This document shows, piece after piece, positions 488-62,984 of a stretch of 64,000 bases of DNA (the stretch's first letter is position 1; every line of letters starts with the position of its first letter). Position numbers and translations under genes: made by a program. The stretch is from Thermomicrobiales bacterium (GTDB taxonomy: Bacteria; Chloroflexota; Chloroflexia; Thermomicrobiales; UBA6265), in assembly GCA_050696075.1 (NCBI GenBank), contig JBOGUF010000149.1, forward strand, positions 10,507 through 74,506, in the 5' to 3' direction. The notes below the pieces were generated by a model. The model was given only the letters and a program-made list of their open reading frames with translations, was not told the origin of the DNA and did not search any database.

Positions 488-2505
488 TGGGCCGTTCGTC
501 CCGTCAGCGGTGCGCGGACGCGGCGGCGACGCCGCCACGGCACGACCGTGACCAACCACTCGAGCGCCAACAGGGCCAGGGCCGCCGCGACAAGCGCCGG
601 CCACAGATCGGAGAGTGTGCTCCCGAAACCCGCTTCGTCGCCGGCTTGCGCGGTGCCCAAGATCGCCGGCAGGTCGGGGTTGGCGCGCAGATCCGACTCC
701 CAGTCGCTGCCGGCATTGACGATGAAGCGGCCACTGCCGATCTCCTGCTCGTCGGCGCCGAGCTCAACGACCCCAAACTCGCCGGGCTGACCGGTGTCGG
801 CGAAGGCAACGTCGCGCAGTGGCTCCCGCGTTGACTCAGTCTCGTTTGCCGCTGCCTCGGCCCCGGCCACCGGCTCGCCGCCGCCGATGCGGAGATCGAT
901 CGGCTCGCCCGCGGGCGGGACGAAGCGGACGACGGACGCGGCCGAGCTCGGGCGGTAGAGTAGCGGCTCACCGAGCGGGACGGAGGAGGGGAGGGGACTC
1001 GGCGCCAGATCGTTGGCGATGTTGGCCATCAGGATCGGGAAGGCGTGACGCCGCGGCATGTTCGATTTGCCGACGTCGAACGCCAGCACGACCATCGGCT
1101 CGTTCGTGCCGGGCGTCGTGCCGCGGTAGATGAGCGGTCCCTCGGCGTCGGCCACAACCACGACATCGGCCGCGTCCAGCACGTGATCGGGTGTCTCGCC
1201 GAATTGGACGCCGGAGAGTTCGACGCCGAAGAGCAGCGGGTCCTCGGCGCGGATCGTCTCGGCGGCGGGGTCGTGCAGGACGCCCTCGACTTCGAAGAAG
1301 CCGCCCTGCTGGGGATGGACAAAGAGGACCGGCGTGCTGGGCAGGCCGCTGGCCGAGGGAGTCCAACTCTCGTAGACGACGAGGTCGTAGGCGCTGCCGG
1401 CGTTTTCGGCCGCCGGGCTGTCGGTCCCTTCGACAGTCACCTGAGCGCCGGGGAGGACCGAGAGGACGCGCTGCATCGTCAGCGGCGCATCGGATACCAG
1501 GAGGATGCGGAGGGCGAGGTCGTCGTCCTTTGCCAAGACGGCGGCAGCCCGGTTGTCGGCCGGTAGGGCGTCGTCATGGTCGACCGTGATGGTGACCTCG
1601 GTGGTGCCGGCGGGGATGCTTGTCACCAACTCGATGCTCGCGCCCGGCTCGATCGTCTCTTGCCCCGACTCCACCGAGACGACGTCGGCCAAGACCTCGT
1701 AGGGAACCGTCATCGGTTGATCGGAGAAGTTCGTGACTTGGGCATACAACTCGCGCTCGGCCGGGTTGGCGGCCGAGGCGCGGGTGGAGAGATCGGTGAT
1801 GGCGACGTTCGGCGACGCGGGATTGCCGACGGTGACGAGCTCGATCGGCGCGCCGACCGCGACGACGATGCCGGGGTCGGCGGTGAGCTTGCCGTCGGAG
1901 ATGAGGACGATCTGGTCATCCAAATCGGGCAGGATCAGATCCTTGGCCAGGCCGAGGGCGGCGTTGAGGTCGGCGCGACCGCCCGGCGCCGGGAAGCGGC
2001 CGAGTTGGTCGCGTAGCGCCTTGAGGCCGGCGGCGTCGGTCGCCTCGCGCGTCGTCAGATGGGTGCCGAGGATGAGGAGTGTTGCCACGTCGCCCTCGCG
2101 CAGGTCGTTGAGACGCGAGACAGCCTCGTCGCGGGCGGCCTCGTAGCGGGTGCGGGCGCCGTCGGCGTCGCGGGCGGTCATGCTCGTCGAGCCGTCGAGG
2201 AGGAGGATCAGGTGGCGCGGCTCGGTGCGCTGGCCGATCCCGGCCAAGACGGACGAGGTGACGGGGCGGGCGAGGGCGAACCCGATCGCGGCGACGATGA
2301 GCAGGTGGAGCAGGAGTAGGAGGCTCAGCGGCGGCCGGCGGAAGCGGGCCTCCTCTTGTTGCTCACGAATGGCGACCAGCCAGAAGCGAAGCGTCGGCAC
2401 GGGAAAGCGGTGCGGCGTGGTGTGCCGCATGTGAAACAGGATCACGAGCGGCAAGCCGACGAGCGCGGCCAAGCCCAGAGGGGCGAGCAGATCGATGCCG
2501 CTCAT
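481..2505 (-). CDS. VWA domain-containing protein (BatA-like N-terminal TM domain)
   Basis: 674-aa ORF with an N-terminal TM helix (LLAPLGLAALVGLPLVILFHMRH) and the VWA MIDAS motif LLLDGSTSM. ATGA start/stop overlap with the DUF58 gene. Confidence 0.85.
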   Translation of the reverse strand: MSGIDLLAPLGLAALVGLPLVILFHMRHTTPHRFPVPTLRFWLVAIREQQEEARFRRPPLSLLLLLHLLIVAAIGFALARPVTSSVLAGIGQRTEPRHLILLLDGSTSMTARDADGARTRYEAARDEAVSRLNDLREGDVATLLILGTHLTTREATDAAGLKALRDQLGRFPAPGGRADLNAALGLAKDLILPDLDDQIVLISDGKLTADPGIVVAVGAPIELVTVGNPASPNVAITDLSTRASAANPAERELYAQVTNFSDQPMTVPYEVLADVVSVESGQETIEPGASIELVTSIPAGTTEVTITVDHDDALPADNRAAAVLAKDDDLALRILLVSDAPLTMQRVLSVLPGAQVTVEGTDSPAAENAGSAYDLVVYESWTPSASGLPSTPVLFVHPQQGGFFEVEGVLHDPAAETIRAEDPLLFGVELSGVQFGETPDHVLDAADVVVVADAEGPLIYRGTTPGTNEPMVVLAFDVGKSNMPRRHAFPILMANIANDLAPSPLPSSVPLGEPLLYRPSSAASVVRFVPPAGEPIDLRIGGGEPVAGAEAAANETESTREPLRDVAFADTGQPGEFGVVELGADEQEIGSGRFIVNAGSDWESDLRANPDLPAILGTAQAGDEAGFGSTLSDLWPALVAAALALLALEWLVTVVPWRRRRRVRAPLTGRTAHG

Positions 2506-3509
2506 TCGATCAGCCCCTTCCCGTGCAGCAACCGGAGGACGATCGATTCGATCGGCCAGTTGGTCTGGAGGCGGAGGTAATCGACGTGCTCCGCGTTGCA
2601 GGCATGCTCGATCTCCGTCAGCCAGGCGCCAACCGCCTCCTCATATCGCTCCAGTACCCGCGTTGTTGGGGTCAGGCGCAGCCGGTCGCCAAGCTCGACC
2701 TCGATCAGCTCGGTTTGTTGCGGCCGGCCACCGAGACTGCTGGCGACGACGGACGCGGGAGACAATTCGGCCTCGTCGACGACGTGGAGCACGACCGTCT
2801 GCCAGCCGCGGCCGCGCAAGAGCAGCAAACTGTCCTCGATCTGTCCGGGATCGCCGGAGAGGAGGTCGGAGATCAGCAGCAGGATGCCGGGCCGGCGGCG
2901 GGCGCGCACGTACCGCTCGAGTGCCGCTGGCAGGTCGGTTTCGCCGAGCGGTTCGAGGCGGGTGAGATAGGTCAGCATCGGGACAACGTGCGCTCGTCCA
3001 TGAGATGGCCCGAAGGGTTGGCCAAGCTCGCGGCCGAAGGGGGTGATCACGACGCGGTCGAAATGCCACAGCGAGACATAACAGAGCGCGCCGGCGAGTT
3101 TCTGGGCATACCGGAGCTTCGTGGGGGTTTCCTCTTCGCCGCGCCAGTCCATCGAGTTGCTCGCGTCGAGCAGGACGTGGACGGTGAGCTCGGTGGTGAT
3201 CTCGCTGAGGCGGATGAAGACCTCGTCGAGGCGGGCGTAGAGGTTCCAGTCGATGCGGCGGTAGTCGTCGCCCTGACTGTAGCTCTTGAAGTCGGAGAAC
3301 TCGGGTGCGGAGCCGCGCCGCTTCGAGCGATGCTCACCGGTCAGGCCCTCGGCGATCGTGCGGCTGGAGACGACCGTCATCCGGCGCAGCCGCGCCAAGA
3401 GTTCTTCGGTGAAGAGCGGGGCTTCCCCGTGAGTGGACAGATTGCGCGTGCCACGGCCGTTGGCGGCCGACGGGCGGAGGCGGCCGAGGGTGGGGAGGGT
3501 CAGGCGCAT
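2502..3509 (-). CDS. DUF58 domain-containing protein
   Basis: Only the C-terminal 335 aa of the 818-aa track ORF. Start is the ATG at 3509 (MRLTLPTLGRL). EFSDFKSYSQGDDYRRIDWNLYAR and VLLDASNSM are typical of DUF58 proteins in MoxR/VWA clusters. Confidence 0.85.
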   Translation of the reverse strand: MRLTLPTLGRLRPSAANGRGTRNLSTHGEAPLFTEELLARLRRMTVVSSRTIAEGLTGEHRSKRRGSAPEFSDFKSYSQGDDYRRIDWNLYARLDEVFIRLSEITTELTVHVLLDASNSMDWRGEEETPTKLRYAQKLAGALCYVSLWHFDRVVITPFGRELGQPFGPSHGRAHVVPMLTYLTRLEPLGETDLPAALERYVRARRRPGILLLISDLLSGDPGQIEDSLLLLRGRGWQTVVLHVVDEAELSPASVVASSLGGRPQQTELIEVELGDRLRLTPTTRVLERYEEAVGAWLTEIEHACNAEHVDYLRLQTNWPIESIVLRLLHGKGLIE

Positions 3510-3564
3510 GGGGACCCTCCAGGCGGCGCCCCGACACGACGATTGACACGGCAAGCCATCTCCA

Positions 3565-5568
3565 TCACGAGTCACCGTCCGGGTCGGAGAAGTAGTCCTC
3601 AACGATGCCGCGGTAGGCGGGTGGGACACGGTTGCTGTCGGGGCCGGCCTCGTCGACCTCGCCCTGGACGGTGGCGCCGCTGCCCGCGGTGACGCCGGCG
3701 CCGGAGCCGAGGCTGGAGGTGCCGCTATTGCCACTGGTGCGGACGCTGCCCCCATCCGGACCCTCGTTGAGCTGGAGGGAGGAACTGGCGTCGGCGGTCG
3801 AATCCTGGCCTTCGCCTTCGCCGGGCTGCCGCGCGGAGACGTTCTCCTCCGACGGCGCGCCTTCGCCCCCCTCTCCGGTTTCCTGACGGCTCGTGCCGCT
3901 CGGGTCGTCGGAGGGCTGGCCACTGCCGGAGCCGGCGCCGGCGCCCTGTTGCGACTGCGCCTCCTCGGCGCCGGTGGCGCTGCTTTGGTCGCCGGCGGGC
4001 GGGCCCCCTGGACCCTCTTGACCACCCGGCTGGCCGACTTGGTCGTCCGGATTCCCGGCCTGTGCGCCCTGGCCGCCCTCGGCTTGCTCGCCCGGTATCT
4101 GGCCATCGCCCGGTTCCTGAGCAGAGGCGCCCGGCTCTCCCGAACCTTGTTGCTGCCCATCACCGGATTGGGCCTCGGCGCCAGAACCGGTGTCACCTGA
4201 TTGTGCCTGTTGAGCGGTCTGATCGGCGGCCTGGCCCTCTTGTCCGGGCTGGCCGTCTTGTTGGGCGCCCGGGTCCTGCTGAGCGGCATCGCTGCCGCCG
4301 GAGGGTGGGCTGTCGCCGTGCGTGGCTTGGGCCTGTTCCATCCGCTCGTTGAGCTCCTGCTGGGGGACCACCTGCTCGCCGGTGCGTTCGACCTCGTCGC
4401 CGAGCTGCCGCACGCCCTCCTGCGCCGGCGTGTCGCCCTGGCGCAGGCCATCGGCGGCCTGGTTGGTGGCGTCGGTGAGGTCCTGGCTGCCCGGCGACAT
4501 TTGCGACGCCGCCGCTTCCAGGTCCTGCGCCATGCCTTCGCGGGCCGACGGGGAGAGGTCGCCGGTGCGCTCGGAGAGGTCGCGCAGCTCGTTGGCGGCC
4601 GATTCATAGTCGCCCTGCTCGATCGCTTCGGCGGCGGCGCGAGTGACCGAGTGGTCGTTGAGCGCCTCGCCGAGGTGGTCGAGGTCCTGCCGTGCTTCGT
4701 TGGAGCGTTCGGCGGTTTGCTCGACCTCAGCCACGGTCGGCACGTTTGCCGGATCGACCTCGGCGGCGGCCTGGGCCGCGGCCTCGGCTTGCTGCTCGAA
4801 GCGCTCGACGGCGGGGACGAAGCGGGGCACCCCGGCGTTGGAGACATCCGGTACGACGCCGCCGACGCCGCGCAGGAAGTAGAGCGAGGCCAGGAGCAGC
4901 CCGACCGCGACGGCGAGGACAAGTTCCCGGACAGGCAGCCGGATGCGGAAGGCGGCATGGCGTCGCACCTCGGTGACGACGTTCGCCGCGTCGGCCATCT
5001 GAAGGTAGACGACCGAGGCGCGCTCGCCGTCGCGCGGTACGGCGCGGCCGAGATTCTCGACCGCGGTCGAGACGCGCTCGTGGAGGGCGAAGGAGCGGTC
5101 GAGCATCCGCGCCACCTGGTGGCGGGTGGGGCGGGAGAGGAAGGCCAGGATGACGCCGGGAATGGCGAGCGCGACGACGAGCACGATCAGCGCGTCGACG
5201 TCGAGCGCGGGGCCGCCGGCGAGCTCGACGAGGAGCCAAACGCACCCGGCGAGCAACCCGAGCCAGGAGGCGCGGGCGATGAATGTGAAGGCGCGTTGGA
5301 GCCAGATGCGGCGCGCGATCTGCCTTGTCATCCGGGCGACCTGCTCGCCCGCGAGTCCGGCGGCCTGCACCGGCGCATCCCGCGCTGGCAGTTGCGGCGG
5401 CGGCATGTCGGAACCGAGCCAGTAGGGCAGCCAAACGATCCGCCAGAGCAAGCGCCACCGCTCGTGACGGGTCAGCGGCGGCCGGGCGGCCGCTTCCCGC
5501 CATGCCGCGACGCGCGGCCGGACATCAAAGGGGGTCTGGGTTCGTGGGAGCGAGAGACGGGTAGCCAT
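3565..5568 (-). CDS. membrane protein with long Gln/Gly/Glu/Asp-rich low-complexity region
   Basis: 667-aa ORF with several N-terminal TM helices. About 250 aa of QGEDA-rich sequence follow, then a C-terminal VPPAYRGIVEDYFS motif. Position upstream of DUF58/VWA genes fits a Bat-like cluster. Confidence 0.7.
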   Translation of the reverse strand: MATRLSLPRTQTPFDVRPRVAAWREAAARPPLTRHERWRLLWRIVWLPYWLGSDMPPPQLPARDAPVQAAGLAGEQVARMTRQIARRIWLQRAFTFIARASWLGLLAGCVWLLVELAGGPALDVDALIVLVVALAIPGVILAFLSRPTRHQVARMLDRSFALHERVSTAVENLGRAVPRDGERASVVYLQMADAANVVTEVRRHAAFRIRLPVRELVLAVAVGLLLASLYFLRGVGGVVPDVSNAGVPRFVPAVERFEQQAEAAAQAAAEVDPANVPTVAEVEQTAERSNEARQDLDHLGEALNDHSVTRAAAEAIEQGDYESAANELRDLSERTGDLSPSAREGMAQDLEAAASQMSPGSQDLTDATNQAADGLRQGDTPAQEGVRQLGDEVERTGEQVVPQQELNERMEQAQATHGDSPPSGGSDAAQQDPGAQQDGQPGQEGQAADQTAQQAQSGDTGSGAEAQSGDGQQQGSGEPGASAQEPGDGQIPGEQAEGGQGAQAGNPDDQVGQPGGQEGPGGPPAGDQSSATGAEEAQSQQGAGAGSGSGQPSDDPSGTSRQETGEGGEGAPSEENVSARQPGEGEGQDSTADASSSLQLNEGPDGGSVRTSGNSGTSSLGSGAGVTAGSGATVQGEVDEAGPDSNRVPPAYRGIVEDYFSDPDGDS

Positions 5569-7236: not shown

Positions 7237-7523
7237 CGGCGCAAGCCCTTCCGACGTCAGGCGTCAATGGAAGCGACCCGGGCTGGCCGGTCGACACGGA
7301 AACGGACACACCAGATATGCGAAGGAGTGCGTGAGACCGGCAGCCCCTCCGCCACCGCTGCAAGCGCATTTCCTTTGCCTACATGTTTCATTGTACGCCA
7401 TCCGCACGAATAGCCGTCGGCCAACCGAACCCAATCCGGTCTCCACTGGTTCGATCATCGCGCACCGCTGGGGGTTTGCACATCGGCAGGAATACGTAAA
7501 GTAGCCGGCGCGACTGTGCGTAG

Positions 7524-7560
7524 GCGGCAAGGCGGCAAGGCGTCAAGGCGGCAAGGCGTT
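7524..7560. repeat. tandem octamer array (GGCGGCAA x ~4.5)
   Basis: ggcggcaaggcggcaaggcgtcaaggcggcaaggcgtta read directly. No inverted partner seen nearby. Confidence 0.7.
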
Positions 7561-9041: not shown

Positions 9042-11468
9042 TCAGATAATCCCCAACTGGAAGCCGAGGGCGACAGCGGCGGCGCGGTTGTCGATGCCGA
9101 GCTTGACGAAGATGTTGGTGACGTGGGTGGTGGCGGTGCGGTGGCTGATGAAGAGCGCCTCGCCGATCTCGCGGCTCGACTTGCCCTCAGCCAGCAGGCG
9201 CAGCACTTCCAACTCGCGGGGCGTGATACCGGCACTCTCGGCGGCGGTGCGGACGGCGGGCGGGGCGGCAGGGTGGCTGGCGACGATCGCCGCGGCGTCG
9301 GCCACCGCCTGTTCGAGGGAGAGGTCGCGGCCGGCGATCCAGGCGGCGCGGAACCCTTCTTCGCCGAGCTGCTGCTTGGCAAGGGCGGTCGCGCGGTCGT
9401 ATTGGGCGCTGATGTAGGGTTGGAGGCTGAGGCCGATTCCCTCGCGGAGGGCGTCGGCGGCGGCGAAGAGGCGGACGGCGACCTCCGCCTGCTGGTGGGC
9501 GGCGGCGATGGCGGCGAGCCCGTGCAGGATCTCGACGACGCCCCACGGGTCGCGGTCGCCTTGTTCCCAGCCAAGGGTAAGGCTCTCGCGAAAGAGTTCG
9601 GCGGCGCGCTCGTCGTCGCCCTGGGCACGGGCGTAGATGGCGAGGTTGAGGAGGGCGGTGCCGATGCCCCAGATGTTGCCGAGGCGGCGCCAGCGGTCGA
9701 GCGCCTCCTGGTAGTGCCCGCCGGCGGCTTTCCAATTGCCGCGCTCGAAGGTTTCGATGCCGAACCGGTTGAGGGCGAACGGCACCCACGCGTCGTCGCC
9801 GAGCTCGTGGAAGAGGGCGAGGGCCGATTCGGCGTGGGAAGCCGCGTCGTCATGGTTGCCACGGGCGCCCTCGGCGAAGCTGAGGGTGAAGAGGCCACGG
9901 GCCCGGATTCGCGTGTCGCCGGCGTCTTCGGCAATGGCGATGGCTTCGCGCGCGAGATGGGCGCCGCGTTCGCCGTCGCCTTGGACGCTGGCGAAGAAGG
10001 CGGAGGCGAGCATCGCCCGCGCGCGGACGATCGGCGACACCTCGTCGGCCGCCGCGAGGAGACGGTCGTACCACCCGCGCCCTTCGGTGAGGTAGCCGCG
10101 CGTTTGCCAGAACCACCAGAGTGCGCGGGCCAGGCGGAGCGCCGTTTCGGGATCGCGTTCGGCGCTCCAGTCGAGCGCGGCGCGGAAGTTGGCGTGCTCC
10201 CATTCGAGCCGGTCGAGCCAGGCGATCTGGTCCAGGCCCCAGACGGCCGGTTCGGCTTCCTCGGCCAAAGCCAGCGCCCAGGCGGCGTGCCGCGCCCACG
10301 CCTCATCCTCTTCACCGGCCGCCACGAGTTGCTCGATCCCGAACTCGCGGATCGTTTGGAGCATCCAGAATCGCGGTTCCCCGCCCCGCTCGTCCTGTCG
10401 CAGCAGGCTCTTGTCGACGAGGGAGGCGAGACCGTCGAGGACGGAGTCATGCGTCGTGAGTCGTGGGTTGTGCGTAGCTCGTTCGTTGTTCCTCACGTCT
10501 CGCGACTCACGGCTCACGACTCGTTCGGCGGCGTCGAGCGAGCAGCCGCGGGCGAAGACGGCGAGGCGGCGGAAGAGGGTTTGCTCCTCCTCGTCGAGCA
10601 AGTCGTAGCTCCAGGCGATGGCGTCGCGCATCGTTTGGAGGCGGACAGGGAGGTCGCGCGGGCCGCCGGTGAGGACGTGCAGGCGGTTGGTGAGGCGAGC
10701 GAGCAGGGCTTGCGGCGAGAGGACTTTGACGCGGGCGGCGGCGAGCTCGATGGCGAGCGGCAGCCCGTCGAGGCGGCGGCAGATCTCGGCGACCGCGGCG
10801 GCGTTCGCCTCGGTGAGGGCGAATTCGGGACGGACGGCGCGGGCACGTTGGAGGAAGAGGGCGACAGCGTGGTTCGCCTCGAGATCGCCAAGCTGTGCGA
10901 TGCGGCCCGCGGGCAGCGGCAGTGGCGCGACCGGGAATTCATGCTCCCCGGTGAGGTGGAGCGAGACCCGGCTGGTAACGAGCGCCTTGACGCCGGGACA
11001 GGCGGCGAGCAGATTGGTGATGACCGGCGCGGCGGACGCGACCTGCTCGAAGCTGTCGATCACCAACAGCAGCGACTGGTGATGGAGCAGACGGTGGAGG
11101 CGCTGATCGACGGGCTCGTCGCCCTCATTGCGCAAATCGAACGCGCGCGCGATAGCGGGGAGGACGAGGGCGGGGTCGCGGATGGAGGCGAGGGGCACGA
11201 ACCAGACACCGTCGGGGAAGGCGTCCCGGAGGTCGGTGGCGGCTTGCAGGGCGAGGCGGGACTTGCCGACGCCGCTCGGTCCGGTCAGGGTGACGAGAGG
11301 GACGTGCTCCTCGGCGAGCAAGGCGCGGACGCCGGCGATCTCCTCGTCGCGGCCGATCAGGGGAGTGCGAGGCGTCGGCAGGCGCGCTCCGCCGCCCCCA
11401 TCGGGGCGGCGGAGCGGGGTCAGCATCGTTGGGCGCGTCTCTGGAGCCGCGGGCGTCGGGGTGGACAA
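9042..11468 (-). CDS. LuxR-family transcriptional regulator with N-terminal AAA/NB-ARC-like ATPase and TPR region
   Basis: 808 aa. Walker A GPSGVGKSRL, TPR-like repeats, and a C-terminal LuxR HTH (TPRELEVLRLLAEGKSSREIGEALFISHRTATTHVTNIFVKLG). Confidence 0.9.
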   Translation of the reverse strand: MSTPTPAAPETRPTMLTPLRRPDGGGGARLPTPRTPLIGRDEEIAGVRALLAEEHVPLVTLTGPSGVGKSRLALQAATDLRDAFPDGVWFVPLASIRDPALVLPAIARAFDLRNEGDEPVDQRLHRLLHHQSLLLVIDSFEQVASAAPVITNLLAACPGVKALVTSRVSLHLTGEHEFPVAPLPLPAGRIAQLGDLEANHAVALFLQRARAVRPEFALTEANAAAVAEICRRLDGLPLAIELAAARVKVLSPQALLARLTNRLHVLTGGPRDLPVRLQTMRDAIAWSYDLLDEEEQTLFRRLAVFARGCSLDAAERVVSRESRDVRNNERATHNPRLTTHDSVLDGLASLVDKSLLRQDERGGEPRFWMLQTIREFGIEQLVAAGEEDEAWARHAAWALALAEEAEPAVWGLDQIAWLDRLEWEHANFRAALDWSAERDPETALRLARALWWFWQTRGYLTEGRGWYDRLLAAADEVSPIVRARAMLASAFFASVQGDGERGAHLAREAIAIAEDAGDTRIRARGLFTLSFAEGARGNHDDAASHAESALALFHELGDDAWVPFALNRFGIETFERGNWKAAGGHYQEALDRWRRLGNIWGIGTALLNLAIYARAQGDDERAAELFRESLTLGWEQGDRDPWGVVEILHGLAAIAAAHQQAEVAVRLFAAADALREGIGLSLQPYISAQYDRATALAKQQLGEEGFRAAWIAGRDLSLEQAVADAAAIVASHPAAPPAVRTAAESAGITPRELEVLRLLAEGKSSREIGEALFISHRTATTHVTNIFVKLGIDNRAAAVALGFQLGII
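10453..10523. repeat. inverted heptamer arrays (GTCGTGA / TCACGNC) embedded in frame in the LuxR CDS
   Basis: Left arm gtcgtgagtcgtgggttgtgcg. Spacer tagctcgttcgttgttc. Right arm ctcacgtctcgcgactcacggctcacgactcg. The element encodes RVVSRESRDVRNNERATHNPRLTTHD. Confidence 0.8.
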
Positions 11469-13327: not shown

Positions 13328-13334
13328 CTGCACC

Positions 13335-13460: not shown

Positions 13461-14378
13461 TCATCCCTTTAATGCGCCGATTGTGAGGCCGCGTAGGAGG
13501 TAGCGTTGGAGGAGGAGGAAGATGATGATCACCGGGATGGCGGAGATGCTGGCACCGGCCATGAGCGGACCGTAGTCGATCGAGTTCTCGTAGCGGTATT
13601 GGGCGAGGCCGACGGAGAGGTTGCGCATGTCCGACGAGTTCGTGAAGAGGAGCCACCAGAAAAAGCTGTTCCATTCGTAGATGAAGGTGAAGATGGCGAC
13701 GACGGCGAGTCCAGGCTTGGCCAGCGGCAGGATGATCTTCCAGAAGATGCCGAACTCGGAGCAGGCGTCGATGCGGGCGCTGTCGATCAGGGTCGAGGGG
13801 AGCGTCTGCATGAACTGTTTGAGGAGGAACATGTTCCAGACGCTGCCAAGGCCGGGGATGATCAACACCCAGTAGGTGTTGATGAGTCTGAGGTCGGAGA
13901 TGAGCATGAAGAGCGGCACCCAAACGACGACGAAGGGGACCATGATCATGGAGAGGAGCAGCCAGAAGATCTGGCGACCGCCGGGAAAGCGCAGCTTGGC
14001 GAAGGCGTAGGCGGCCATCGCGTTGACGAAGAGGTTGCCGATGGTGACGACAATAGCGACGAGCGCGGTATTGAAGACCCACCGCGGCAGGTCGGACTCC
14101 TCGAAGATCGTGCGGTAATGGTCGAGGCTGATCGGATTAGGAATCCATTGCGGCGGCAGGCTCAGTAGTGAGGTGGATGACTTGACCGACGTGGTGAGCA
14201 TCCAATAGATCGGCAGGAGGGCAATACCGGCCCACGCGACCAAAATAGCGTAGACCAGCACCTTGGCGCCGACGTTCAGCGATCGGCTCGTTGGCAGCCA
14301 TGATGTCCGCTCGCGCGGCCGGGTTGAATCGAGCTCGGCGGCTCCGGCGGCTAATCGCTTCTCGTGGGTGATGCGCAC
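13461..14378 (-). CDS. carbohydrate ABC transporter permease
   Basis: 305 aa with the multi-TM MalG/BPD_transp_1 pattern. GTG start preceded by AGGAGG. Confidence 0.9.
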   Translation of the reverse strand: MRITHEKRLAAGAAELDSTRPRERTSWLPTSRSLNVGAKVLVYAILVAWAGIALLPIYWMLTTSVKSSTSLLSLPPQWIPNPISLDHYRTIFEESDLPRWVFNTALVAIVVTIGNLFVNAMAAYAFAKLRFPGGRQIFWLLLSMIMVPFVVVWVPLFMLISDLRLINTYWVLIIPGLGSVWNMFLLKQFMQTLPSTLIDSARIDACSEFGIFWKIILPLAKPGLAVVAIFTFIYEWNSFFWWLLFTNSSDMRNLSVGLAQYRYENSIDYGPLMAGASISAIPVIIIFLLLQRYLLRGLTIGALKG

Positions 14379-20016: not shown

Positions 20017-22425
20017 TCAGATCAGGCCGCGGCGGACGGCAACGGTGGCGGCCGCGGTGCGGTTGGCGGCGCCGAGCTTTTCCAGAATCGCGGCGACGTG
20101 CTTGGAGGCGGTGCGGGAGGAGATGAAGAGGGCGGCGGCGATCTCGTGGTCGGAGCGGCCCTCGCCGAGGAGGCGCAGCACGTCGCGCTCGCGCGGAGTG
20201 AGGCCGGCGCTGTCGGCCGGAGGCAGGGGTTCAGGGAGAGGCAACGCGAGAGCAGGCGCGGTTTCGGCGGCTGGTTCGAGGAGCGCCGTCGCGTGGGCGA
20301 TGGCCTGATCGAGGCGCCAGGCGCTGCCTATCGTCCAGGCAGCGGTGAAGGCTGTCTCGCCGAGGCGCGCGCAAGCGGCCTCCGCCGCGCGGGCGTACCG
20401 TTCTTGTTCGGGCAGTTCGAAGGCGTACCCGAGGGCCTGGGCGGCGGCCTCTGCCGCGCCGAGGAGCGCCGCGGCCTCTGCCGCCTGGTCGCGCTCCACG
20501 AGGAGGCAGGCGACGCGGGCCAAGGAGTCGACGATCCCTTCCTTCGACCCGACCCGTTGGTGCCAGGCGAGGCTCTCGCGGTACACCCGCGCGGCGCGGT
20601 CGTGGTCGCCAAGATCGCCGGTGACAAGTGCTAGGTCGCTGAGGGTGACGGCCACGCCCCATGGCTCATCGAGGTCGCGATAGCGACGCAGGGAGTCTTC
20701 GAGGAGGGCGACTGCCCGCGCCGGATCGCCCTGCCAGTAGGCGAGGATGCCGAGGTTGCAGCGGGCGAGGGCGACCCAGGTCGGCGCGTCCGACTGCTCG
20801 AAGAGGGCGAGCGCCTCCGCGAAGAGGGCAACCGCTCGATCGTAGTCGCCGCGACTCCGGGCCAGGGCGCCCAGCAAGTTGAGGATGGCGCCGGTGTCGC
20901 GGGTTTCATCAAGCTCGCGGTAGAGCGTCAGGGCTGATTCGGCGAAGGCGATGGCCCGCGCGGGATCACCGCGGGTGCGGGCGAGCGAGGCGGCGGCGTG
21001 GAGCGCCCGTGCCCGGATTGCGGGCGGCACTTCCGCCTGGCGCTCCACCGTGAGCGCCCGTTCAAGCCACTGCAACCCCTCGACGCGGTGGCTGCGGAGG
21101 GACCAGAAGGGCGCGAGGACGGTGGCCAGGCGGAGGAGAGACGTCGTGTCGCCGCGCTGCTCCAGCCAGGCCAGGGCCGCGCGCAAGTTGCCATACTCAC
21201 GCTCCAGGCGATCGAAGACTTCGGGATGGACCGGTTCCCGCATCGGGAAGGTCAGCGCGTGTTCGGCAAGATCCAGGCACCAGCGCGCGTGTTGACGCCG
21301 CGCCTCGTCGGCCTCGCCGCTCGCCGCCAGCCGCTCTAGGGCGTACTCCCGGATCGTCTCTAGGAGTCCGAAGCGCGACTCGTCTCCCTCTCCGCCGTCC
21401 TGTCGCACCAGGCTCTTGTCGACGAGGGAGGCGAGGAGGTCGAGGACGGAGGCGGAAGACGGAAGGCGGGAGGCGGGAGGCGGCCGAGGCGTCGTCATTA
21501 TCCGCCTTCCGCCTGCCGCCACCACTTCGGCGGCATCGAGGGAGAAGCCGGGGGTGAAGACGGCGAGGCGGCGGAAGAGGGCTTGCTCCTGCCCGTCGAG
21601 AAGGTCGTAGGACCAAGCGATGGCGGCGCGCAAGGTTTGGAGGCGGTCAGGGGCGTCGCGAGGGCCGCCGGTGAGGAGCGGCAAGCGTTGCTCGAGCCGG
21701 GAAAGGAGCGCGGGCAGGTTCAGGACTTTGACGCGGGCGGCAGCCAGCTCAATGGCGAGCGGCAGGTCGTCGAGGCGGGCGCAGATGGCATCGAGGAGCG
21801 GTTGATCGGCCGGCGTGACGGAAAATTGGGCGTCGACCGCGAGGGCGCGCTCGGCGAAGAGGCGGGCCGCGGCGGGTCGGGCCAGGGGCGGGACATGGAG
21901 GATACGCTCGCCGGAGAGACGGAGCGGTTCCCGGCTGGTGACCAGCGCGCGGAGGCGGGGGCAGACGGTGAGCAGCTCGGCCAAGATGGGCGCGGCGGCG
22001 ATGACGTGCTCGACATTGTCGATCAGGAGCAGCGCGTGGGTGTGACGGAGGGCGGCCTTCAGGCGGGCGATCAACGGCTGGTCGTGGGCCTCGCGCACGC
22101 CAAGGGCGCGGGCAATGGTCGCGGCGACAAGGTCCGGGTCGCGCAACGCGGCCAGCGGAATGAAAGCAACGCCGTCCTTGAAATCGGGTTCAAGTTCGGC
22201 CGCGACCTGAAGGGCGAGGCGCGTTTTGCCGACGCCACCGGGACCGGTCAGCGTCAGCAAACGGGTGTCGCCGCCCAGCAGCGTCGTCGCCATGGCGACT
22301 TCATCTGCCCGTCCGATGAGCGCGGTGAGCGGCGTCGGCAGGTTGGCGTCGGCGAACCGCTCCTCGCGGGGGAGGGTGGTGAGTTTGCTGGTTCGTGGCT
22401 TGGGTGAGAACGGCTCGGTCGACAT
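20017..22425 (-). CDS. LuxR-family transcriptional regulator with AAA ATPase and TPR region (paralog of 9042..11468)
   Basis: Walker A GPGGVGKTRL, TPR repeats and a C-terminal LuxR HTH. Start placed at the ATG at 22425 (MSTEPFSPKP). The upstream part of the track ORF translates a nonamer repeat (LANLANLAN). Confidence 0.9.
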   Translation of the reverse strand: MSTEPFSPKPRTSKLTTLPREERFADANLPTPLTALIGRADEVAMATTLLGGDTRLLTLTGPGGVGKTRLALQVAAELEPDFKDGVAFIPLAALRDPDLVAATIARALGVREAHDQPLIARLKAALRHTHALLLIDNVEHVIAAAPILAELLTVCPRLRALVTSREPLRLSGERILHVPPLARPAAARLFAERALAVDAQFSVTPADQPLLDAICARLDDLPLAIELAAARVKVLNLPALLSRLEQRLPLLTGGPRDAPDRLQTLRAAIAWSYDLLDGQEQALFRRLAVFTPGFSLDAAEVVAAGGRRIMTTPRPPPASRLPSSASVLDLLASLVDKSLVRQDGGEGDESRFGLLETIREYALERLAASGEADEARRQHARWCLDLAEHALTFPMREPVHPEVFDRLEREYGNLRAALAWLEQRGDTTSLLRLATVLAPFWSLRSHRVEGLQWLERALTVERQAEVPPAIRARALHAAASLARTRGDPARAIAFAESALTLYRELDETRDTGAILNLLGALARSRGDYDRAVALFAEALALFEQSDAPTWVALARCNLGILAYWQGDPARAVALLEDSLRRYRDLDEPWGVAVTLSDLALVTGDLGDHDRAARVYRESLAWHQRVGSKEGIVDSLARVACLLVERDQAAEAAALLGAAEAAAQALGYAFELPEQERYARAAEAACARLGETAFTAAWTIGSAWRLDQAIAHATALLEPAAETAPALALPLPEPLPPADSAGLTPRERDVLRLLGEGRSDHEIAAALFISSRTASKHVAAILEKLGAANRTAAATVAVRRGLI
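21448..21522. repeat. inverted heptamer arrays (GGAGGCG/GAAGGCG x5 and CCGCCTT x3) embedded in frame in the LuxR CDS
   Basis: Left arm ggaggcggaagacggaaggcgggaggcgggaggcg. Spacer gccgaggcgtcgtcattat. Right arm ccgccttccgcctgccgccac. The element encodes about GGRRIMTTPRPPPASRLPSSAS. Confidence 0.8.
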
Positions 22426-22532
22426 GCCAGGGTCCTGACGGGTAGTCAGCGTGCGGCGTGGCGCTATGGTTTCAACGATACCGCACTGGTAGCGGTTTTC
22501 GATATGAGCGTGGTGAGACAGGTTGGTGCGGT

Positions 22533-22568
22533 GGTTGGCCAGGTTGGCCAAGTTGGCCAGGTGGACAA
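22533..22568. repeat. tandem nonamer array (GGTTGGCCA x3-4) upstream of the LuxR gene
   Basis: ggttggccaggttggccaagttggccaggtggacaa read directly. Each unit contains the palindrome TGGCCA. Confidence 0.75.
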
Positions 22569-22943
22569 GCTGGAGCAATCGGACCGTGGGGCAGCGGGGG
22601 CCGCCCTGGACTAAAGTCGGGGCTCGGTGACGGCAGTCGGCTGGAAGCCGACTGCCCGCGGGCCGGGTGTGTCGATGATTCGGGCGATGGCACAGGGCAG
22701 CCGCTTGGTTGATCAGGTTGATCGCGGGATCAATCTGGGGTGGGTGAGAGACGACGAAAAGCGCCCTCTATCTATTAAGGCATTGATTTTTGGGGCAAAA
22801 TGGGACTCAGATTTCGATTATTGATCATGTGGTTATGTGTATTGTTGTGTCGTTCGTCGCGCTCGCTGGCTCCGATGCGGCGGGGAAGGACATGAGAGAA
22901 TGGGCGGTTATCGAGTGGTCATCCGTGGCGGTGATACGGGCGA

Positions 22944-25956: not shown

Positions 25957-27316
25957 AAGTCCTCGAAGTTCTGTAAATTCCTCCGTGTCGTCGTTTCGTC
26001 GTAGTTGTGGTTAGTCCGCGGCGGTCGCCAGCGGCGTCGTTGGCTGGTCACGGGTGCGTCCCTGGTGGGTCATGTCCAGATACCGGCGCCCGCTCACCCA
26101 CTCCTCGCTCTGCTCCATCGCCAGCGCCGTCACCAACCGCAGCAGACTCGCCCGGTGCGGAAAGATGCGTACGACGCGGGTGCGTTGCTTGAGCTCCTGG
26201 TTGAGCCGCTCGACTCCCTTGGTCGTCCGGAGGCGCGTGCGGTGTTCGGCTGGGAAGCCCAGGCAGGTCAGTGCGTCGTCCAGATCGTCTTCCCACCGGA
26301 TCGCTAATGCCGGGTGGGTCGCTCGCCAGCGATCAGCGGCGTCCTGGGCCGCCGCGGTCGCCTGGCTATGGGTGCTCGCCGCGAAGATGCCGCGCAAATC
26401 GTCCGCCAGTTCTCGTCGGCGTCGCTGGCTGACGGTGGAGAGCAGGTTCCGGGTGACGTGGACCTGGCACCGCTGCCCGCTCGCCCCGTGGACGTGGCGT
26501 TCCATCGCCGCGTGCCAGCCCCGGTGGTCGTCACTGGTCACCCGTTCCACCCCGCGCCGTCCGCGCTCCTTGAGGGACCGGAAGAGGGTCTGGTAACTCG
26601 CCTCGTTCTCGGTATCGGCAACATCGACGGCCAGGATCTCACGCTGCCCATCACGCCGCACACCAGCCACGATCAGCACGCCCTGATTCACCACCCGACC
26701 GTCGCTCCGGACATGCTCGTAGCGCGCGTCCACCGCCAGGTACGGGTACGCTTGGTCCGTCAAGGTTCGGGTGCGCCATGCCGCCCGCTCGCCGTCGAGC
26801 CGACTCGTCAATGCCGAGACCTGGCTCGTGGAGAAGCTCATCCCACACAGCTCCTCGGTGATCGCGGCCACCTTTCGGGTCGAGACCCCCTGCACATACA
26901 TCTCCATCAAGGGGCTCACCAGCGCCTGCTCACTTCGCTGATACCGGGCGAAGAGCTCCGTCGAAAAGACGCCCTCCCGGTCTTGGGGAACGGCTAACGG
27001 CACCGCCCCCACCCGGGTCACCAGCGTCCGTGGCTTGGTGCCATGGCGGTACCCGGTGCGCCCCGCTGCGCGTTCATACCGCTCCGCCCCCAGATGCGCA
27101 CTCATTTCGGCTTCCAGGATTGCCTGCACGGTTCGCTCGACCAGACCCCGCGGAACCTCCGGATCGTCGATCAGCATTGGTCCTGTGGAACTGCGATCAC
27201 TACCATTGCTCATGGCCCTCGGTTGCTCCTCCTGATGGCGTGCGTCAACACCGCTATCGTGGAGGACGGTGGCCACCTCGGTCATCCGGCCACCTTTTAC
27301 AGAACTCTACGGACTC
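25957..27316 (-). mobile_element. IS256-family insertion sequence
   Basis: Imperfect terminal inverted repeats aagtcctcgaagttctgtaaa (25957-25977) and tttacagaactctacggactc (27296-27316), 16 of 21 matching. They enclose the transposase gene. No direct target duplication found. Confidence 0.8.
26011..27285 (-). CDS. IS256 family (Mutator-type) transposase
   Basis: 424 aa. Characteristic blocks LEAEMSAHLGAERYER, YPYLAVDARYEHVR, LIVAGVRRDGQREIL, QRCQVHVTRNLL and TTKGVERLNQELKQRTRVV. Confidence 0.92.
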   Translation of the reverse strand: MTEVATVLHDSGVDARHQEEQPRAMSNGSDRSSTGPMLIDDPEVPRGLVERTVQAILEAEMSAHLGAERYERAAGRTGYRHGTKPRTLVTRVGAVPLAVPQDREGVFSTELFARYQRSEQALVSPLMEMYVQGVSTRKVAAITEELCGMSFSTSQVSALTSRLDGERAAWRTRTLTDQAYPYLAVDARYEHVRSDGRVVNQGVLIVAGVRRDGQREILAVDVADTENEASYQTLFRSLKERGRRGVERVTSDDHRGWHAAMERHVHGASGQRCQVHVTRNLLSTVSQRRRRELADDLRGIFAASTHSQATAAAQDAADRWRATHPALAIRWEDDLDDALTCLGFPAEHRTRLRTTKGVERLNQELKQRTRVVRIFPHRASLLRLVTALAMEQSEEWVSGRRYLDMTHQGRTRDQPTTPLATAAD

Positions 27317-51574: not shown

Positions 51575-51604
51575 GGGTCAGGGGTCGGGAGTCAGGAGTC
51601 AGGG
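51575..51604. repeat. tandem heptamer array (GRGTCRG x4), left arm of the four-helix-bundle cassette
   Basis: gggtcaggggtcgggagtcaggagtcaggga. It contains the TGA stop (tca at 51599-51601) of the four-helix-bundle gene. Confidence 0.85.
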
Positions 51605-51973
51605 ACGACGTTCGAGCTTACGCTCAAGAGCGTTTCTTAGAGAAGCGAGTTGTTTGCCTAAGGGCACGACGATTTCCTTCACTTCCTCGAATTGTGCGGC
51701 CTTCAGATACCCAAATCGGACCGCTAATTCACATTGCGTTTCAACCTCCGCCAATGAACTACGAGCAATAGAGATGGCTTGCAAATACTCCTTCGTCGAT
51801 TCCCTGGTGTGTCCCTCCGCGACGTTGGATGGAATTGAAACGGCAGCTCGGCGCAGTTGATTTGCCAGACCATACAGTTCGTGACGAGGAAATGCTTCGG
51901 TTTGCTTGTGGATCATTTCCGCGAGGTCCATCCCTAGTTTCCACACCCGAAGATCCCGAAAGCTCTCAATCAC
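51599..51973 (-). CDS. four helix bundle protein (TIGR02436 / 23S rRNA intervening-sequence protein family)
   Basis: GTG start at 51973 after GAGAGGAG. FRDLRVWKLGMDLAEMIHKQTEAFPRHELYGLANQLRRAAVSIPSNVAEG is the family signature. The upstream part of the track ORF is a shadow. Confidence 0.85.
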   Translation of the reverse strand: MIESFRDLRVWKLGMDLAEMIHKQTEAFPRHELYGLANQLRRAAVSIPSNVAEGHTRESTKEYLQAISIARSSLAEVETQCELAVRFGYLKAAQFEEVKEIVVPLGKQLASLRNALERKLERRP

Positions 51974-51997
51974 CTTCGCTCCTCTCGTCGCCTTTGC

Positions 51998-52026
51998 CCC
52001 TGACTCCTGACTCCTGACCCCTGTCA
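51998..52026. repeat. tandem heptamer array (CCTGACY x4), right arm, inverse of 51575-51604
   Basis: cctgactcctgactcctgacccctgtca. Its reverse complement matches the left arm with 1-2 mismatches over ~24 bp. It contains the TGA stop of aspartate kinase (52024-52026). Confidence 0.85.
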
Positions 52027-62895: not shown

Positions 62896-62981
62896 GCGTT
62901 AGCACTTCCGTCGTGCCGGGCCAGATGCCTCGACGAACTCCGACGCTCGGCATGACGATGCTGACGCCTGACGCCTAACGG
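62873..62981. repeat. inverted heptamer arrays (AGGCGTT x4 / CTGACGC-CTAACGG) around a diverged REP-like core
   Basis: Left arm aggcgttaggcgttaggcgttaggcgtt. Core with cgtcgtgccggg...ctcggcatgacg. Right arm ctgacgcctgacgcctaacgg. It lies between two convergent genes. Confidence 0.8.
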
Positions 62982-62984
62982 CTG

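What the first reader, a model, noticed from the sequence alone, without database searches (positions are those of the whole stretch)
10453..10523. Inverted heptamer-array element translated in frame inside a LuxR regulator, with would-be in-frame stops edited out
The 808-aa regulator contains a 71-bp element with the same architecture as the intergenic ones: left array GTCGTGA-type, an ~17-nt spacer, and right array CTCACGN-type. It encodes RVVSRESRDVRNNERATHNPRLTTHD.

On the coding strand the right array would give TGA once per 7 nt. I checked the reading frame across its five units. The two units whose triplet falls in frame (plus-strand 10500-10502 and 10521-10523) read TCG, which is CGA (Arg) on the coding strand. 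The three out-of-frame units keep TCA.

That is the pattern expected if an inserted repeat has been purged of in-frame stops and is translated as a linker.
Basis: seen in the sequence. Interest (0 to 1): 0.7.

Follow-up and report, generated by a model that had tools for sequence, protein, structure and literature searches.

The report
Heptamer hairpin repeat translated inside regulator
A short hairpin-forming DNA repeat built from 7-base units, common between genes in this Thermomicrobiales genome, sits in frame in a floppy surface loop of a regulator protein and stays readable only because its two in-frame stop codons have mutated; this is a neat but not unprecedented case of junk-like repeat DNA becoming protein.

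Summary
Window 10446-10523 (codons 316-341, RVVSRESRDVRNNERATHNPRLTTHD) of the 808-aa STAND-ATPase/TPR/LuxR gene is two inverted arrays of 7-nt units around an 18-nt spacer. It has the strongest lag-7 signal in the 64 kb. The frame bookkeeping holds: the two in-frame units read CGA and the three out-of-frame units keep TGA.

The origin is at DNA level. A period of 7 is not a codon multiple, GC3 is 0.65 against 0.88, and four of the gene's seven rare CGA codons lie here.

The segment is not a linker to the TPR. It fills the alpha2-alpha3 loop inside the winged-helix domain (pLDDT about 50). That loop is about 13 residues in most homologues across phyla and 28 here.

It is not a unique clean insertion. 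The second paralogue in the window carries a different inverted heptamer array (GGCGGAA) at the same boundaries. Distant paralogue P0027 has the same element, with the same two CGA, inside a roughly 240-nt tract of about 95% identity, which suggests gene conversion. P0026 is a hybrid of two array types. P0053 and P0052 show the same in-frame stop removal independently.

It is most likely a tolerated passenger. The closest analogues are Rickettsia palindromic elements and translated TAACTGA heptamer repeats. I rate it a new variant of a known kind.

The parts
9042..11468 (-). Host gene: 808-aa STAND P-loop NTPase, winged helix, TPR and LuxR/GerE HTH regulator (LAL/MalT-like architecture)
   Evidence: Pfam GerE, TPR_12, AAA_22, AAA_16, NACHT and NB-ARC. 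GC3 is 0.87. AF2 model has pLDDT 89.7 and pTM 0.82. Top Foldseek matches are 6mfv (STAND-TPR), Apaf-1 and plant NLRs. Identical to NCBI MGH2534169.1, a Thermomicrobiales MAG.
10446..10523 (-). Translated element: codons 316-341, RVVSRESRDVRNNERATHNPRLTTHD
   Evidence: GC3 is 17/26 = 0.65 against 0.88 in the rest of the gene (binomial P = 0.0024). Arg codons are CGA x4, CGT and AGG, against CGC 53, CGG 8, CGT 7 and CGA 3 elsewhere in the gene.
10491..10523 (-). mRNA 5' arm: CGAGTCG TGAGCCG TGAGTCG CGAGACG TGAGG, the stop-bearing strand of the heptamer (consensus TGAGTCG)
10473..10490 (-). 18-nt spacer (hairpin loop) AACAACGAACGAGCTACG, identical in paralogue P0027
10447..10472 (-). mRNA 3' arm: CACAACC CACGACT CACGACG CATGA, the complementary heptamer CGACTCA, which has no stops in any frame
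   Evidence: The same arm occurs as a perfect (CTCACGA)x4 in P0026.
10521..10523 (-). In-frame unit 1: CGA (Arg316) where the array consensus has TGA
   Evidence: shared with P0027
10500..10502 (-). In-frame unit 4: CGA (Arg323) where the array consensus has TGA
   Evidence: shared with P0027
10493..10516 (-). Three retained out-of-frame TGA (+ strand TCA at 10493-95, 10507-09 and 10514-16)
10399..10640 (-). Tract of about 95% nucleotide identity to distant paralogue P0027 (the genes are 62% identical overall); a candidate gene-conversion tract that includes the element
   Evidence: upstream 113/117, element 73/78, downstream 45/48; identity collapses abruptly after gene nt 1070.
20017..22578 (-). 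Paralogous regulator (853 aa, 47% aa identity)
21452..21525 (-). The paralogue's loop at the same boundaries: an inverted array of a different, stop-free heptamer (GGCGGAA / TTCCGCC)
   Evidence: D3, D8. Hairpin of -47.1 kcal/mol, z = -2.4.
51579..52028 (.). Context: intergenic inverted arrays of GAGTCAG-type heptamers (51579-51605 and 51996-52028). These are the closest intergenic relatives in the window of the GAGTCGT unit of the finding. The same heptamer is translated in the loops of P0053 and P0052.
   Evidence: (I19)
62871..62984 (.). Context: a compact intergenic inverted heptamer array, (AGGCGTT)x4.3, a 55-nt spacer, then its complement, lying between convergent genes

Best explanation
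The segment is a decayed copy of a lineage-specific, hairpin-forming simple-sequence cassette: two inverted arrays of a 7-nt unit around a short spacer. In this Thermomicrobiales genome such cassettes normally lie between genes, abutting start and stop codons.

Here the cassette occupies the whole alpha2-alpha3 loop of the winged-helix domain of a STAND/TPR/LuxR regulator. That loop is the one place in this protein family that tolerates between about 7 and 45 residues.

Because the cassette is an inverted pair, one arm always presents the stop-bearing strand (TGAGTCG) on the coding strand, with a TGA in frame every third unit. The gene stays open only because the two in-frame TGA are CGA.

The cassette is read through and appears in the protein as a roughly 20-residue disordered, hydrophilic surface loop. 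The mRNA can still form an imperfect hairpin.

The cassette and its highly conserved flanks have moved between distant paralogues, most likely by gene conversion. Ours and P0027 share it, and P0026 is a hybrid.

Shown: the anatomy, the frame, the non-coding codon usage, the position in the fold, the recurrence in paralogues, and the repeated in-frame stop loss.

Inferred: that it arrived as a pre-formed cassette, that it is translated in vivo, and that it is functionally neutral.
For: - **Lineage specificity.** Period-7 arrays number 14 in this 64-kb window, against 0-5 for periods 5, 6 and 8-11. They are nearly absent from about 80 homologue loci of other phyla but abundant in Thermomicrobiales loci L029, L036 and L025.
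- **Location of strong arrays.** Nearly all strong arrays in the window are intergenic or touch a gene end. The only strong one deep inside a gene is in the second paralogue's loop, and the array of the finding, which scores just below that threshold, lies in the same loop of this gene.
- **Related heptamers.** GAGTCGT here, GAGTCGG in L029 and GAGTCAG at window 51579/51996.
- **DNA-level origin.** A period of 7 is not a codon multiple. GC3 is 0.65 against 0.88 (P = 0.0024), and the element holds 4 of the gene's 7 CGA codons.
- **Loop length.** The family mode is 13 aa (spacing 29). Long loops are scattered across the tree rather than forming one group.
- **Structure.** H311-318, then coil 319-338 with pLDDT about 50, then H339-352 and the beta wing.
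- **Same site, other heptamers.** Seen in the window paralogue, P0045, P0053, P0052, L038 and L111.
- **Stop removal replicated.** In P0053 the in-frame units read CAA and CTT. In P0052 the in-frame unit reads CGA. Out-of-frame TGA are kept; pooled Fisher p = 0.005.
- **Shared tract with P0027.** 113/117, 73/78 and 45/48 identical, in genes that are 62% identical overall and sit in different clades.
Against: - No intergenic copy of this exact cassette (GAGTCGT arms plus this spacer) was found in the roughly 120 kb of this or a near-identical genome that I could read.
- No target-site duplication or other insertion scar is visible.
- The ancestral loop is entirely gone, so an origin in place cannot be excluded.
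- The flanks are conserved among all paralogues (86-92%), so the excess identity to P0027 in the flanks (94-97%) is modest.
- The true orthologue's loop is unassembled.
- That P0027 and P0026 belong to the same genome as the window rests only on adjacent GenBank accession numbers.
- Translation and neutrality are untested.
Confidence: 0.62

Rival explanations
1. Origin in place. The loop grew by replication slippage of local sequence into a 7-nt array. The complementary arm arose by template switching or fold-back at the same spot. No pre-formed cassette was ever inserted. The resemblance to intergenic arrays reflects a shared mutational process, not shared descent.
For: - Heptamer repeats are the over-represented long simple-sequence-repeat class in many bacteria, which has been attributed to polymerase slippage (PMC4692102 and PMC4679880, both citing Mrazek 2007).
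- There is no insertion scar, and the ancestral loop is fully replaced.
- In P0045 the conserved Ala-Glu codons GCG GAA run straight into the (GGCGGAA)n array, which looks like local seeding.
- Array boundaries differ between paralogues.
- Orthologous intergenic arrays change unit, and even period (7 versus 8), between genomes about 85% identical.
Against: - 7-8 of 9 loop elements are inverted pairs with a spacer, the same architecture as the intergenic cassettes.
- The same few heptamers (GGCGGAA, GAGTCAG) recur in loops and in intergenic DNA of different genomes.
- Slippage alone does not explain inverted arms.
Confidence: 0.2
2. Contingency or hypervariable site. The heptamer arrays are kept in this loop because gain or loss of one 7-nt unit shifts the frame and switches the regulator off and on. 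In addition or instead, cassette exchange between paralogues diversifies a functional winged-helix surface.
For: - Heptanucleotide repeats mediate phase variation in Haemophilus, including inside an ORF (PMC2651432).
- Many paralogues use the same site, one of them as a hybrid of two array types.
- The arrays in P0026 are perfect, at about 3.5 and 4 units, so they are prone to slippage.
Against: - The arrays in the finding are short and about 80% matched, which makes them poor slippage substrates.
- Ours, P0027 and P0026 all have exactly 78 nt between the anchors, with no unit-number difference.
- No frameshifted allele was seen in any homologue.
- The organism is a free-living soil-type lineage with no obvious need for switching.
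Confidence: 0.1
3. Functional mRNA hairpin. The inverted arrays are retained because the stem-loop in the transcript controls the regulator's own expression, for example through ribosome pausing, a nuclease site or a protein-binding site.
For: Both in-gene elements in the window fold better than shuffled controls (z = -2.1 and -2.4). Arms remain complementary in most loop elements.
Against: - The z-scores are modest and the stems are full of mismatches.
- The arms of P0026 are not complementary at all, yet its gene is intact.
- All five differences between ours and P0027 fall in the arms, and none of them forms an obvious compensatory pair.
- There is no Rfam match.
Confidence: 0.06
4. Chance low-complexity sequence in a variable loop, unrelated to the intergenic repeats.
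For: The loop varies in length and sequence across the family.
Against: - It has the highest lag-7 score in 64 kb.
- The inverted architecture is repeated in several paralogues.
- Codon usage is atypical.
- The TGA pattern depends on reading frame in three independent elements.
Confidence: 0.02

Closest known systems
Rickettsia palindromic elements (RPEs), palindromic repeats inserted in frame in protein-coding genes
   Same: Both are hairpin-forming non-coding repeats found both between genes and in frame inside ORFs. Both are translated and are placed where the fold tolerates them (review PMC10969869).
   Different: RPEs are roughly 100-150 bp families with conserved sequence and a conserved encoded peptide, inserted in many unrelated genes. 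This element is 78 nt, is built from 7-nt tandem units whose sequence differs from copy to copy, and was seen only in one loop of one paralogous regulator family. Sequence relationship to RPEs was not compared, and none is expected.
TAACTGA heptamer direct repeats of Beggiatoaceae, cyanobacteria and Bacteroidetes (MacGregor 2015, PMC4679880)
   Same: Both are 7-nt tandem repeats that are mostly intergenic and close to start or stop codons. In both, the forward strand gives stops in all three frames, so only the reverse strand is found translated. In one case that translation falls in a variable surface loop of an RpoC-like protein.
   Different: The TAACTGA repeats are a single heptamer, almost always as direct arrays (one inverted case is reported). 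Here there are many different heptamers arranged as inverted pairs, so one arm must lose its in-frame stops.
Over-represented intergenic heptameric repeats: GGGAATC in Xanthomonas, GGGGAYT in Nostoc, cyanobacterial STRR, (GATAGRA)n in Chloroflexus
   Same: All are lineage-specific excesses of intergenic 7-nt arrays. Length and sequence turn over fast between close relatives, and some occur as inverted pairs (PMC4692102, PMC6749651).
   Different: Those are one or a few G-rich units per genome and are discussed as G-quadruplex formers. None was reported as recurrently translated in one protein loop.
Phase-variable heptanucleotide repeat loci (Haemophilus hmw promoters and ORFs)
   Same: Both are 7-nt tandem units at or within a gene, where a change in unit number alters expression or frame (PMC2651432).
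   Different: Those tracts are long (8-38 perfect units) and polymorphic between strains. Here the arrays are 3-4.7 imperfect units, with no length variants seen.

Membership tests
Inverted heptamer-array cassettes of this Thermomicrobiales lineage (descriptive class, defined here) | Tandem units with period 7 | tested here: met
   TRF reports period 7 for both arms. The lag-7 score of 0.66 is the maximum of the window.
Inverted heptamer-array cassettes of this Thermomicrobiales lineage (descriptive class, defined here) | Second array that is the reverse complement of the first, separated by a non-repetitive spacer | tested here: met
   Arms TGAGTCG-type and CGACTCA-type with an 18-nt spacer. 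Hairpin of -33.2 kcal/mol, z = -2.1. Intergenic examples have spacers of 5-120 nt.
Inverted heptamer-array cassettes of this Thermomicrobiales lineage (descriptive class, defined here) | Intergenic position abutting start or stop codons | tested here: not met
   The element lies 945 nt into an ORF. That location is the point of the finding.
Inverted heptamer-array cassettes of this Thermomicrobiales lineage (descriptive class, defined here) | Unit sequence shared with intergenic copies | tested here: inconclusive
   No intergenic GAGTCGT array was found in the DNA available. The nearest are GAGTCGG (L029 9006-9028) and GAGTCAG (window 51579-51605). The rest of the genome could not be scanned.
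MITE (miniature inverted-repeat transposable element) | Target-site duplication flanking terminal inverted repeats | tested here: not met
   There is no direct repeat at the 10446/10447 and 10523/10524 junctions. The flanks are simply the conserved codons for AAE and SVLD.
MITE (miniature inverted-repeat transposable element) | Multiple near-identical copies at unrelated loci | tested here: not met
   The only other copies are in the same loop of paralogues P0027 (93.6% identical) and, for one arm, P0026. A search with the encoded peptide found at most 7 word-sharing candidates among 5.8 billion proteins, and none scored.
REP/BIME with RAYT transposase | A cognate RAYT (IS200/IS605-like TnpA) in the genome and a conserved REP sequence | not testable with these tools
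   Only 20 window proteins were scanned. They include an IS256/Mutator-family transposase at 26011-27285 but no RAYT. The whole genome was not available. The heptamers vary in sequence, which argues against sequence-specific recognition.
Rickettsia palindromic elements | Sequence homology to an RPE family and its conserved peptide | not tested
   No comparison was run. The taxon, length and unit structure all differ, so this is treated as a functional analogue only (PMC10969869).
Phase-variable simple-sequence contingency locus | Long, perfect tract with unit-number polymorphism and frameshifted alleles | tested here: not met
   The arrays are 3.1 and 4.4 copies at about 80% match. Ours, P0027 and P0026 have the identical 78-nt length. 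All homologues are in frame. Population data were not available.
STAND NTPase / LAL-type LuxR regulators (host protein) | P-loop NTPase, helical and winged-helix domains, TPR sensor and C-terminal LuxR HTH | tested here: met
   Pfam AAA_22, NB-ARC, NACHT, TPR_12 and GerE. Walker A motif GPSGVGKS. AF2 model plus Foldseek matches to 6mfv, Apaf-1 and NLRs.

The most novel reading that the evidence does not exclude
The alpha2-alpha3 loop of the winged-helix domain in Thermomicrobiales STAND/LuxR regulators may be a dedicated cassette site. Hairpin heptamer cassettes would be captured there and swapped between paralogues through the near-identical flanks. That would give heritable on/off switching (a 7-nt slip shifts the frame) and sequence diversification of a regulatory surface. 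This would amount to a contingency system for a whole family of transcription regulators in a free-living bacterium, fed by a genome-wide repeat class that has not been described.
Probability: 0.1. Interest if true: 0.75.

Novelty: new variant of a known kind. Interest (0 to 1): 0.45.

Why it matters
It documents how non-coding simple-sequence DNA becomes protein sequence. The case has an internal control, because TGA survives out of frame and is lost in frame, and that pattern is replicated in three independent elements.

It shows that one structurally permissive loop of a large paralogous regulator family repeatedly takes up such DNA and passes it between paralogues.

It also flags an apparently undescribed repeat class in Thermomicrobiales: inverted arrays of many different heptamers at gene boundaries. 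This class breaks assemblies, can mislead gene callers and domain models, and turns over faster than the genes around it.

For annotation, long low-confidence loops in these regulators should be read as repeat-derived rather than as functional motifs.

Tried and rejected
- **Third paralogue.** ORF 2502..4958(-) was tested and rejected. It is 20% identical with a proline/arginine-rich translation, so it is a wrong-frame ORF.
- **Source genome.** The genome-contig scan returned only distant homologues (at most 49% identity). The source genome was not among them. The metagenome scan also gave no close orthologue.
- **Exact-protein look-ups.** Look-ups of P0001 and two other window proteins found nothing. 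The claim that P0027 and P0026 share the window's genome therefore rests on the accession series only.
- **True orthologue.** The true orthologue (L083, 88% nt identity, syntenic) starts at the position equivalent to window 10389. The empty-or-filled-site test was therefore impossible.
- **Closest full-length homologue.** The loop of P0002 (64% aa identity, also 28 aa) does not align with ours at DNA level and has no lag-7 signal.
- **Peptide search.** The element peptide was too short as a query. Doubling it gave 7 word-sharing candidates, none of which scored.
- **RNA families.** Rfam and tRNA scans of the window gave no hits.
- **Target-site duplication.** None was found. The CGTCGAG and TCGAGG motifs on both sides are just the Leu-Asp codons of two helix caps.
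- **Integron attC.** I considered this because GTTAGGC/GCCTAAC fits the GTTRRRY/RYYYAAC core. Only one heptamer family fits. By my own estimate the chance of at least one such fit among about 15 families is roughly 20%. No integrase was seen, so I did not pursue it.
Full report
**1. The observation**

The + strand at 10453-10523 reads GTCGTGA GTCGTGG GTTGTGC, then GTAGCTCGTTCGTTGTTC, then CTCACGT CTCGCGA CTCACGG CTCACGA CTCG. Tandem Repeats Finder calls period 7 for both arms: 10444-10465 with 3.1 copies and 10492-10522 with 4.4 copies, both at about 80% match.

The segment lies in ORF 9042..11468 on the minus strand (808 aa). The ORF has GC3 of 0.87 and Pfam matches to P-loop/NB-ARC/NACHT, TPR and GerE/LuxR domains.

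On the coding strand the element is:
- 5' arm: CGAGTCG TGAGCCG TGAGTCG CGAGACG TGAGG
- spacer: AACAACGAACGAGCTACG
- 3' arm: CACAACC CACGACT CACGACG CATGAC

It translates as RVVSRESRDVRNNERATHNPRLTTHD, codons 316-341.

Units 1 and 4 of the 5' arm begin on a codon boundary and read CGA (window 10521-10523 and 10500-10502). Units 2, 3 and 5 read TGA out of frame.

The lag-7 self-match of this 77-nt stretch is 0.66. That is the highest in the 64-kb window, and only windows starting within a few bases of the element reach it. The mRNA strand folds into a long imperfect hairpin of -33.2 kcal/mol, z = -2.1.

**2. The genomic background**

The window is 66% G+C. It holds 14 clear period-7 arrays, against 0-5 for periods 5, 6 and 8-11. 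The arrays use many different units: AGGCGTT, GGCGGAA, GTCAGGA, CTAGCTG, CGGTACG and ACGCCGA. Most lie directly against start or stop codons.

Several form inverted pairs:
- 62871-62904 with 62960-62984, 55-nt spacer
- 5577-5603 with 5684-5718
- 51579-51604 with 51998-52023, 393 nt apart
- 13287-13314 with 14409-14436, which are 28 nt, 100% complementary, and flank an ABC permease gene

Among 80 loci with homologous regulators from many phyla, such arrays are essentially absent. The exceptions are a few Thermomicrobiales contigs (L029 with 13 arrays in 14 kb, L036 and L025) and L038. There too they are inverted pairs of yet other heptamers.

The source is a Thermomicrobiales MAG. The protein is identical to MGH2534169.1.

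At an orthologous intergenic spacer in a genome about 85% identical, arrays sit at the same place but have different units and a different spacer (window 5569-5715 against L083 4720-4872). At another orthologous spot the period is 7 in one genome and 8 in the other. Turnover is therefore fast.

**3. Where the element sits in the protein**

An AlphaFold2 model built on 113 homologues has pLDDT 89.7 and pTM 0.82. It gives helix 293-302, strand 309-310, helix 311-318, coil 319-338 (pLDDT about 50), helix 339-352 and strands 357-359 and 366-368. That is a winged-helix domain with the element in its alpha2-alpha3 loop.

Foldseek places the model with STAND proteins: 6mfv, Apaf-1 and plant NLRs. The segment is therefore a surface loop inside the winged-helix domain. 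It is not the linker to the TPR.

**4. Is the segment extra?**

In 113 homologues at 45% identity or more, the loop between 'AAE' and 'LD' is most often 13 residues. It ranges from 7 to 45, and ours is 28.

At DNA level, across about 110 homologue copies in the fetched loci, the spacing from 'AVF' to 'LVDKSL' is 29 residues in the great majority. Ours is 44.

The long loops with a lag-7 signal are:

| Gene or locus | Lag-7 score |
|---|---|
| ours | 0.62 |
| P0027 | 0.65 |
| P0026 | 0.66 |
| window paralogue | 0.58 |
| L038 | 0.49 |
| L111 / L116 | 0.59 |

In a distance tree built without the loop columns, long loops are scattered among 13-residue loops. This fits repeated gains.

The element's GC3 is 17/26 = 0.65 against 0.88 for the rest of the gene (P = 0.0024). 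Its six Arg codons are CGA x4, CGT and AGG. The rest of the gene uses CGC 53, CGG 8, CGT 7 and CGA 3.

A period of 7 cannot come from selection on protein sequence. The sequence is therefore of DNA-level, non-coding-like origin. However, the element replaces the whole ancestral loop and no target duplication is visible. 'Clean insertion' is not demonstrated.

**5. It is not private to this gene**

The second regulator in the window is 20017..22578(-), 47% identical. It has conserved flanks that stop and restart at exactly the same positions (10446/10524 against 21451/21526, D8 at 93% and D3 at 81%). Between them lies a different inverted array, GGCGGAA/TTCCGCC, of 74 nt. It forms a hairpin of -47.1 kcal/mol, z = -2.4.

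P0027 and P0026 both come from GCA_975325355.1. Their accession numbers sit next to that of the window's protein, so they are probably from the same MAG.

- P0027 carries the same element as ours (73/78 identical), including the same two in-frame CGA. This is despite 62% nucleotide and 52% protein identity overall and a distant place in the tree.
- The high-identity tract with P0027 runs over gene nt 830-1070 (113/117 upstream, 45/48 downstream) and ends abruptly. Other paralogues reach 86-92% in the same flanks, so gene conversion is likely but not proven.
- P0026 is a hybrid: (GGCGGGA)x4 as the 5' arm and a perfect (CTCACGA)x4 as the 3' arm, with non-complementary arms and again exactly 78 nt.

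**6. The stop-removal claim**

For ours and P0027 the two CGA share a single history. Independent replicates exist.

P0053 comes from another genome (L165). Its loop has GGAGTCA/CCTGACT arrays, the same unit as the intergenic arrays at window 51579/51996. Its two in-frame units read CAA and CTT. Two out-of-frame units keep TGA and one reads TGG.

P0052 (L166) has CGA in its in-frame unit and TGA in two out-of-frame units.

Pooled, in-frame units are changed 5 of 5 and out-of-frame units 1 of 8, one-sided Fisher p = 0.005. An intact ORF requires the in-frame changes. The informative part is that TGA is otherwise retained. The arrays therefore descend from TGA-bearing units, and only the translated frame was cleared.

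Because the cassette is an inverted pair, one arm presents the stop-bearing strand whichever way it lies. The other loop elements (window paralogue, P0045, L038, L111 and the 5' arm of P0026) use stop-free heptamers. That is consistent with a selective filter.

**7. Mechanism**

The best-supported reading has confidence of about 0.6. The element is a hairpin-forming heptamer cassette of the lineage's intergenic repeat class. It came to occupy the one length-tolerant loop of this regulator family and was cleared of in-frame stops. It is translated as a disordered loop and spreads among paralogues by recombination through the conserved flanks.

The rivals are:
- origin in place by slippage and template switching (about 0.2), supported by the lack of scars and by P0045, whose array continues from the Ala-Glu codons
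- a contingency or hypervariable site (about 0.1)
- a functional mRNA hairpin (about 0.06)
- chance (about 0.02)

**8. Comparison with known systems**

Heptamer repeats are known to be over-represented in bacteria. They are intergenic and fast-evolving in Xanthomonas, Nostoc and Chloroflexus (PMC4692102, PMC6749651).

TAACTGA repeats give three-frame stops in one orientation. In the other orientation they are translated, once in a variable surface loop (PMC4679880).

Rickettsia palindromic elements are the classic case of in-frame, fold-compatible palindromic insertions (PMC10969869).

This case differs in three ways. It combines many unit sequences in inverted pairs. It recurs in one loop of one paralogue family. 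It shows frame-specific stop clearing. I found no description of these arrays in Thermomicrobiales. No Rfam family matches.

**9. Verdict**

It is a new variant of a known kind, of moderate interest.

Noticed in passing
window 13287-13314 and 14409-14436: Two (AGGCGTT)n / (CCTAACG)n arrays, 28 nt and 100% complementary including the CCGG ends, lie 1094 nt apart. They bracket exactly one gene, the ABC permease 13461..14378, within a sugar-transporter operon. A similar pair at 51579-51604 and 51998-52023 brackets 393 nt.
   Followed up: partly
window 5569-5715 versus L083 4720-4872; window 7522-7558 versus L083 2870-2900: At orthologous intergenic spacers of two genomes about 85% identical, arrays occupy the same place, touching the stop TAG and the start ATG. 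Their units differ (CTGCTAG/GCTAGCA versus GCGTGAG/CCTAACG) and so does the spacer. At the second site the unit has period 8 (GCCTTGCC) in the window and period 7 (GCCTGCC) in L083.
   Followed up: partly
window, all intergenic arrays (for example 5684-5718, 39647-39675, 51996-52028, 55142-55198, 62871-62904): Arrays commonly overlap or abut stop codons. Many units contain TAG, TGA or TAA, so three or more units give stops in all three frames. This may be a functional read-through barrier or simply a selective filter.
   Followed up: no
window 13289-13323, 14406-14434, 62871-62904: The commonest unit, read as GTTAGGC / GCCTAAC, fits the 7-bp integron attC core consensus GTTRRRY / RYYYAAC. The other units do not fit and no integrase was seen. 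I estimate it is probably coincidence, with roughly a 20% chance of one such fit among about 15 unit families.
   Followed up: no
window 13317-13374, 35935-36045, 58673-58816: A separate dispersed repeat family of about 40-100 nt (core CGTCATGCTGAGGCATCGAAGCATCCCCGCGCG) occurs in both orientations, once directly next to a heptamer array. It looks REP- or MITE-like.
   Followed up: no
window 23590-23736, 24615-24686, 28207-28353, 29091-29237, 34119-34265: Five copies of a 72-147-nt repeat (64-88% identical) lie in a lower-GC3 stretch. That stretch also holds an IS256/Mutator-family transposase (26011..27285), a DUF3368 protein and an ECF sigma factor. It may be a mobile or recently acquired region.
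   Followed up: no
window 8055-9041 versus L083 1349-2347: The alpha/beta-hydrolase gene immediately downstream of the regulator, whose start abuts the regulator's stop, is absent from the syntenic orthologue locus. That locus has about 1 kb of unrelated sequence instead.
   Followed up: no
L083 position 1 (equivalent to window 10389): The orthologue's contig ends 55 nt from the element, inside the tract that is near-identical among paralogues. The repeat and conversion tract probably broke the assembly.
   Followed up: partly
window 15443-15493 and 15605-15655: A 51-nt inverted repeat, 88% complementary and 111 nt apart, lies between the solute-binding-protein gene and the first permease gene of the ABC operon. 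It is not heptameric.
   Followed up: no
L111 1256-1328 / L116 4365-4437; L038 3882-4001: More distant homologues (37-41% identity, 69-70% G+C; L038 is labelled Anaerolineales) also carry heptamer arrays in the same winged-helix loop. Their loops are 51 and 63 residues long. The phenomenon therefore reaches beyond this one genome.
   Followed up: partly
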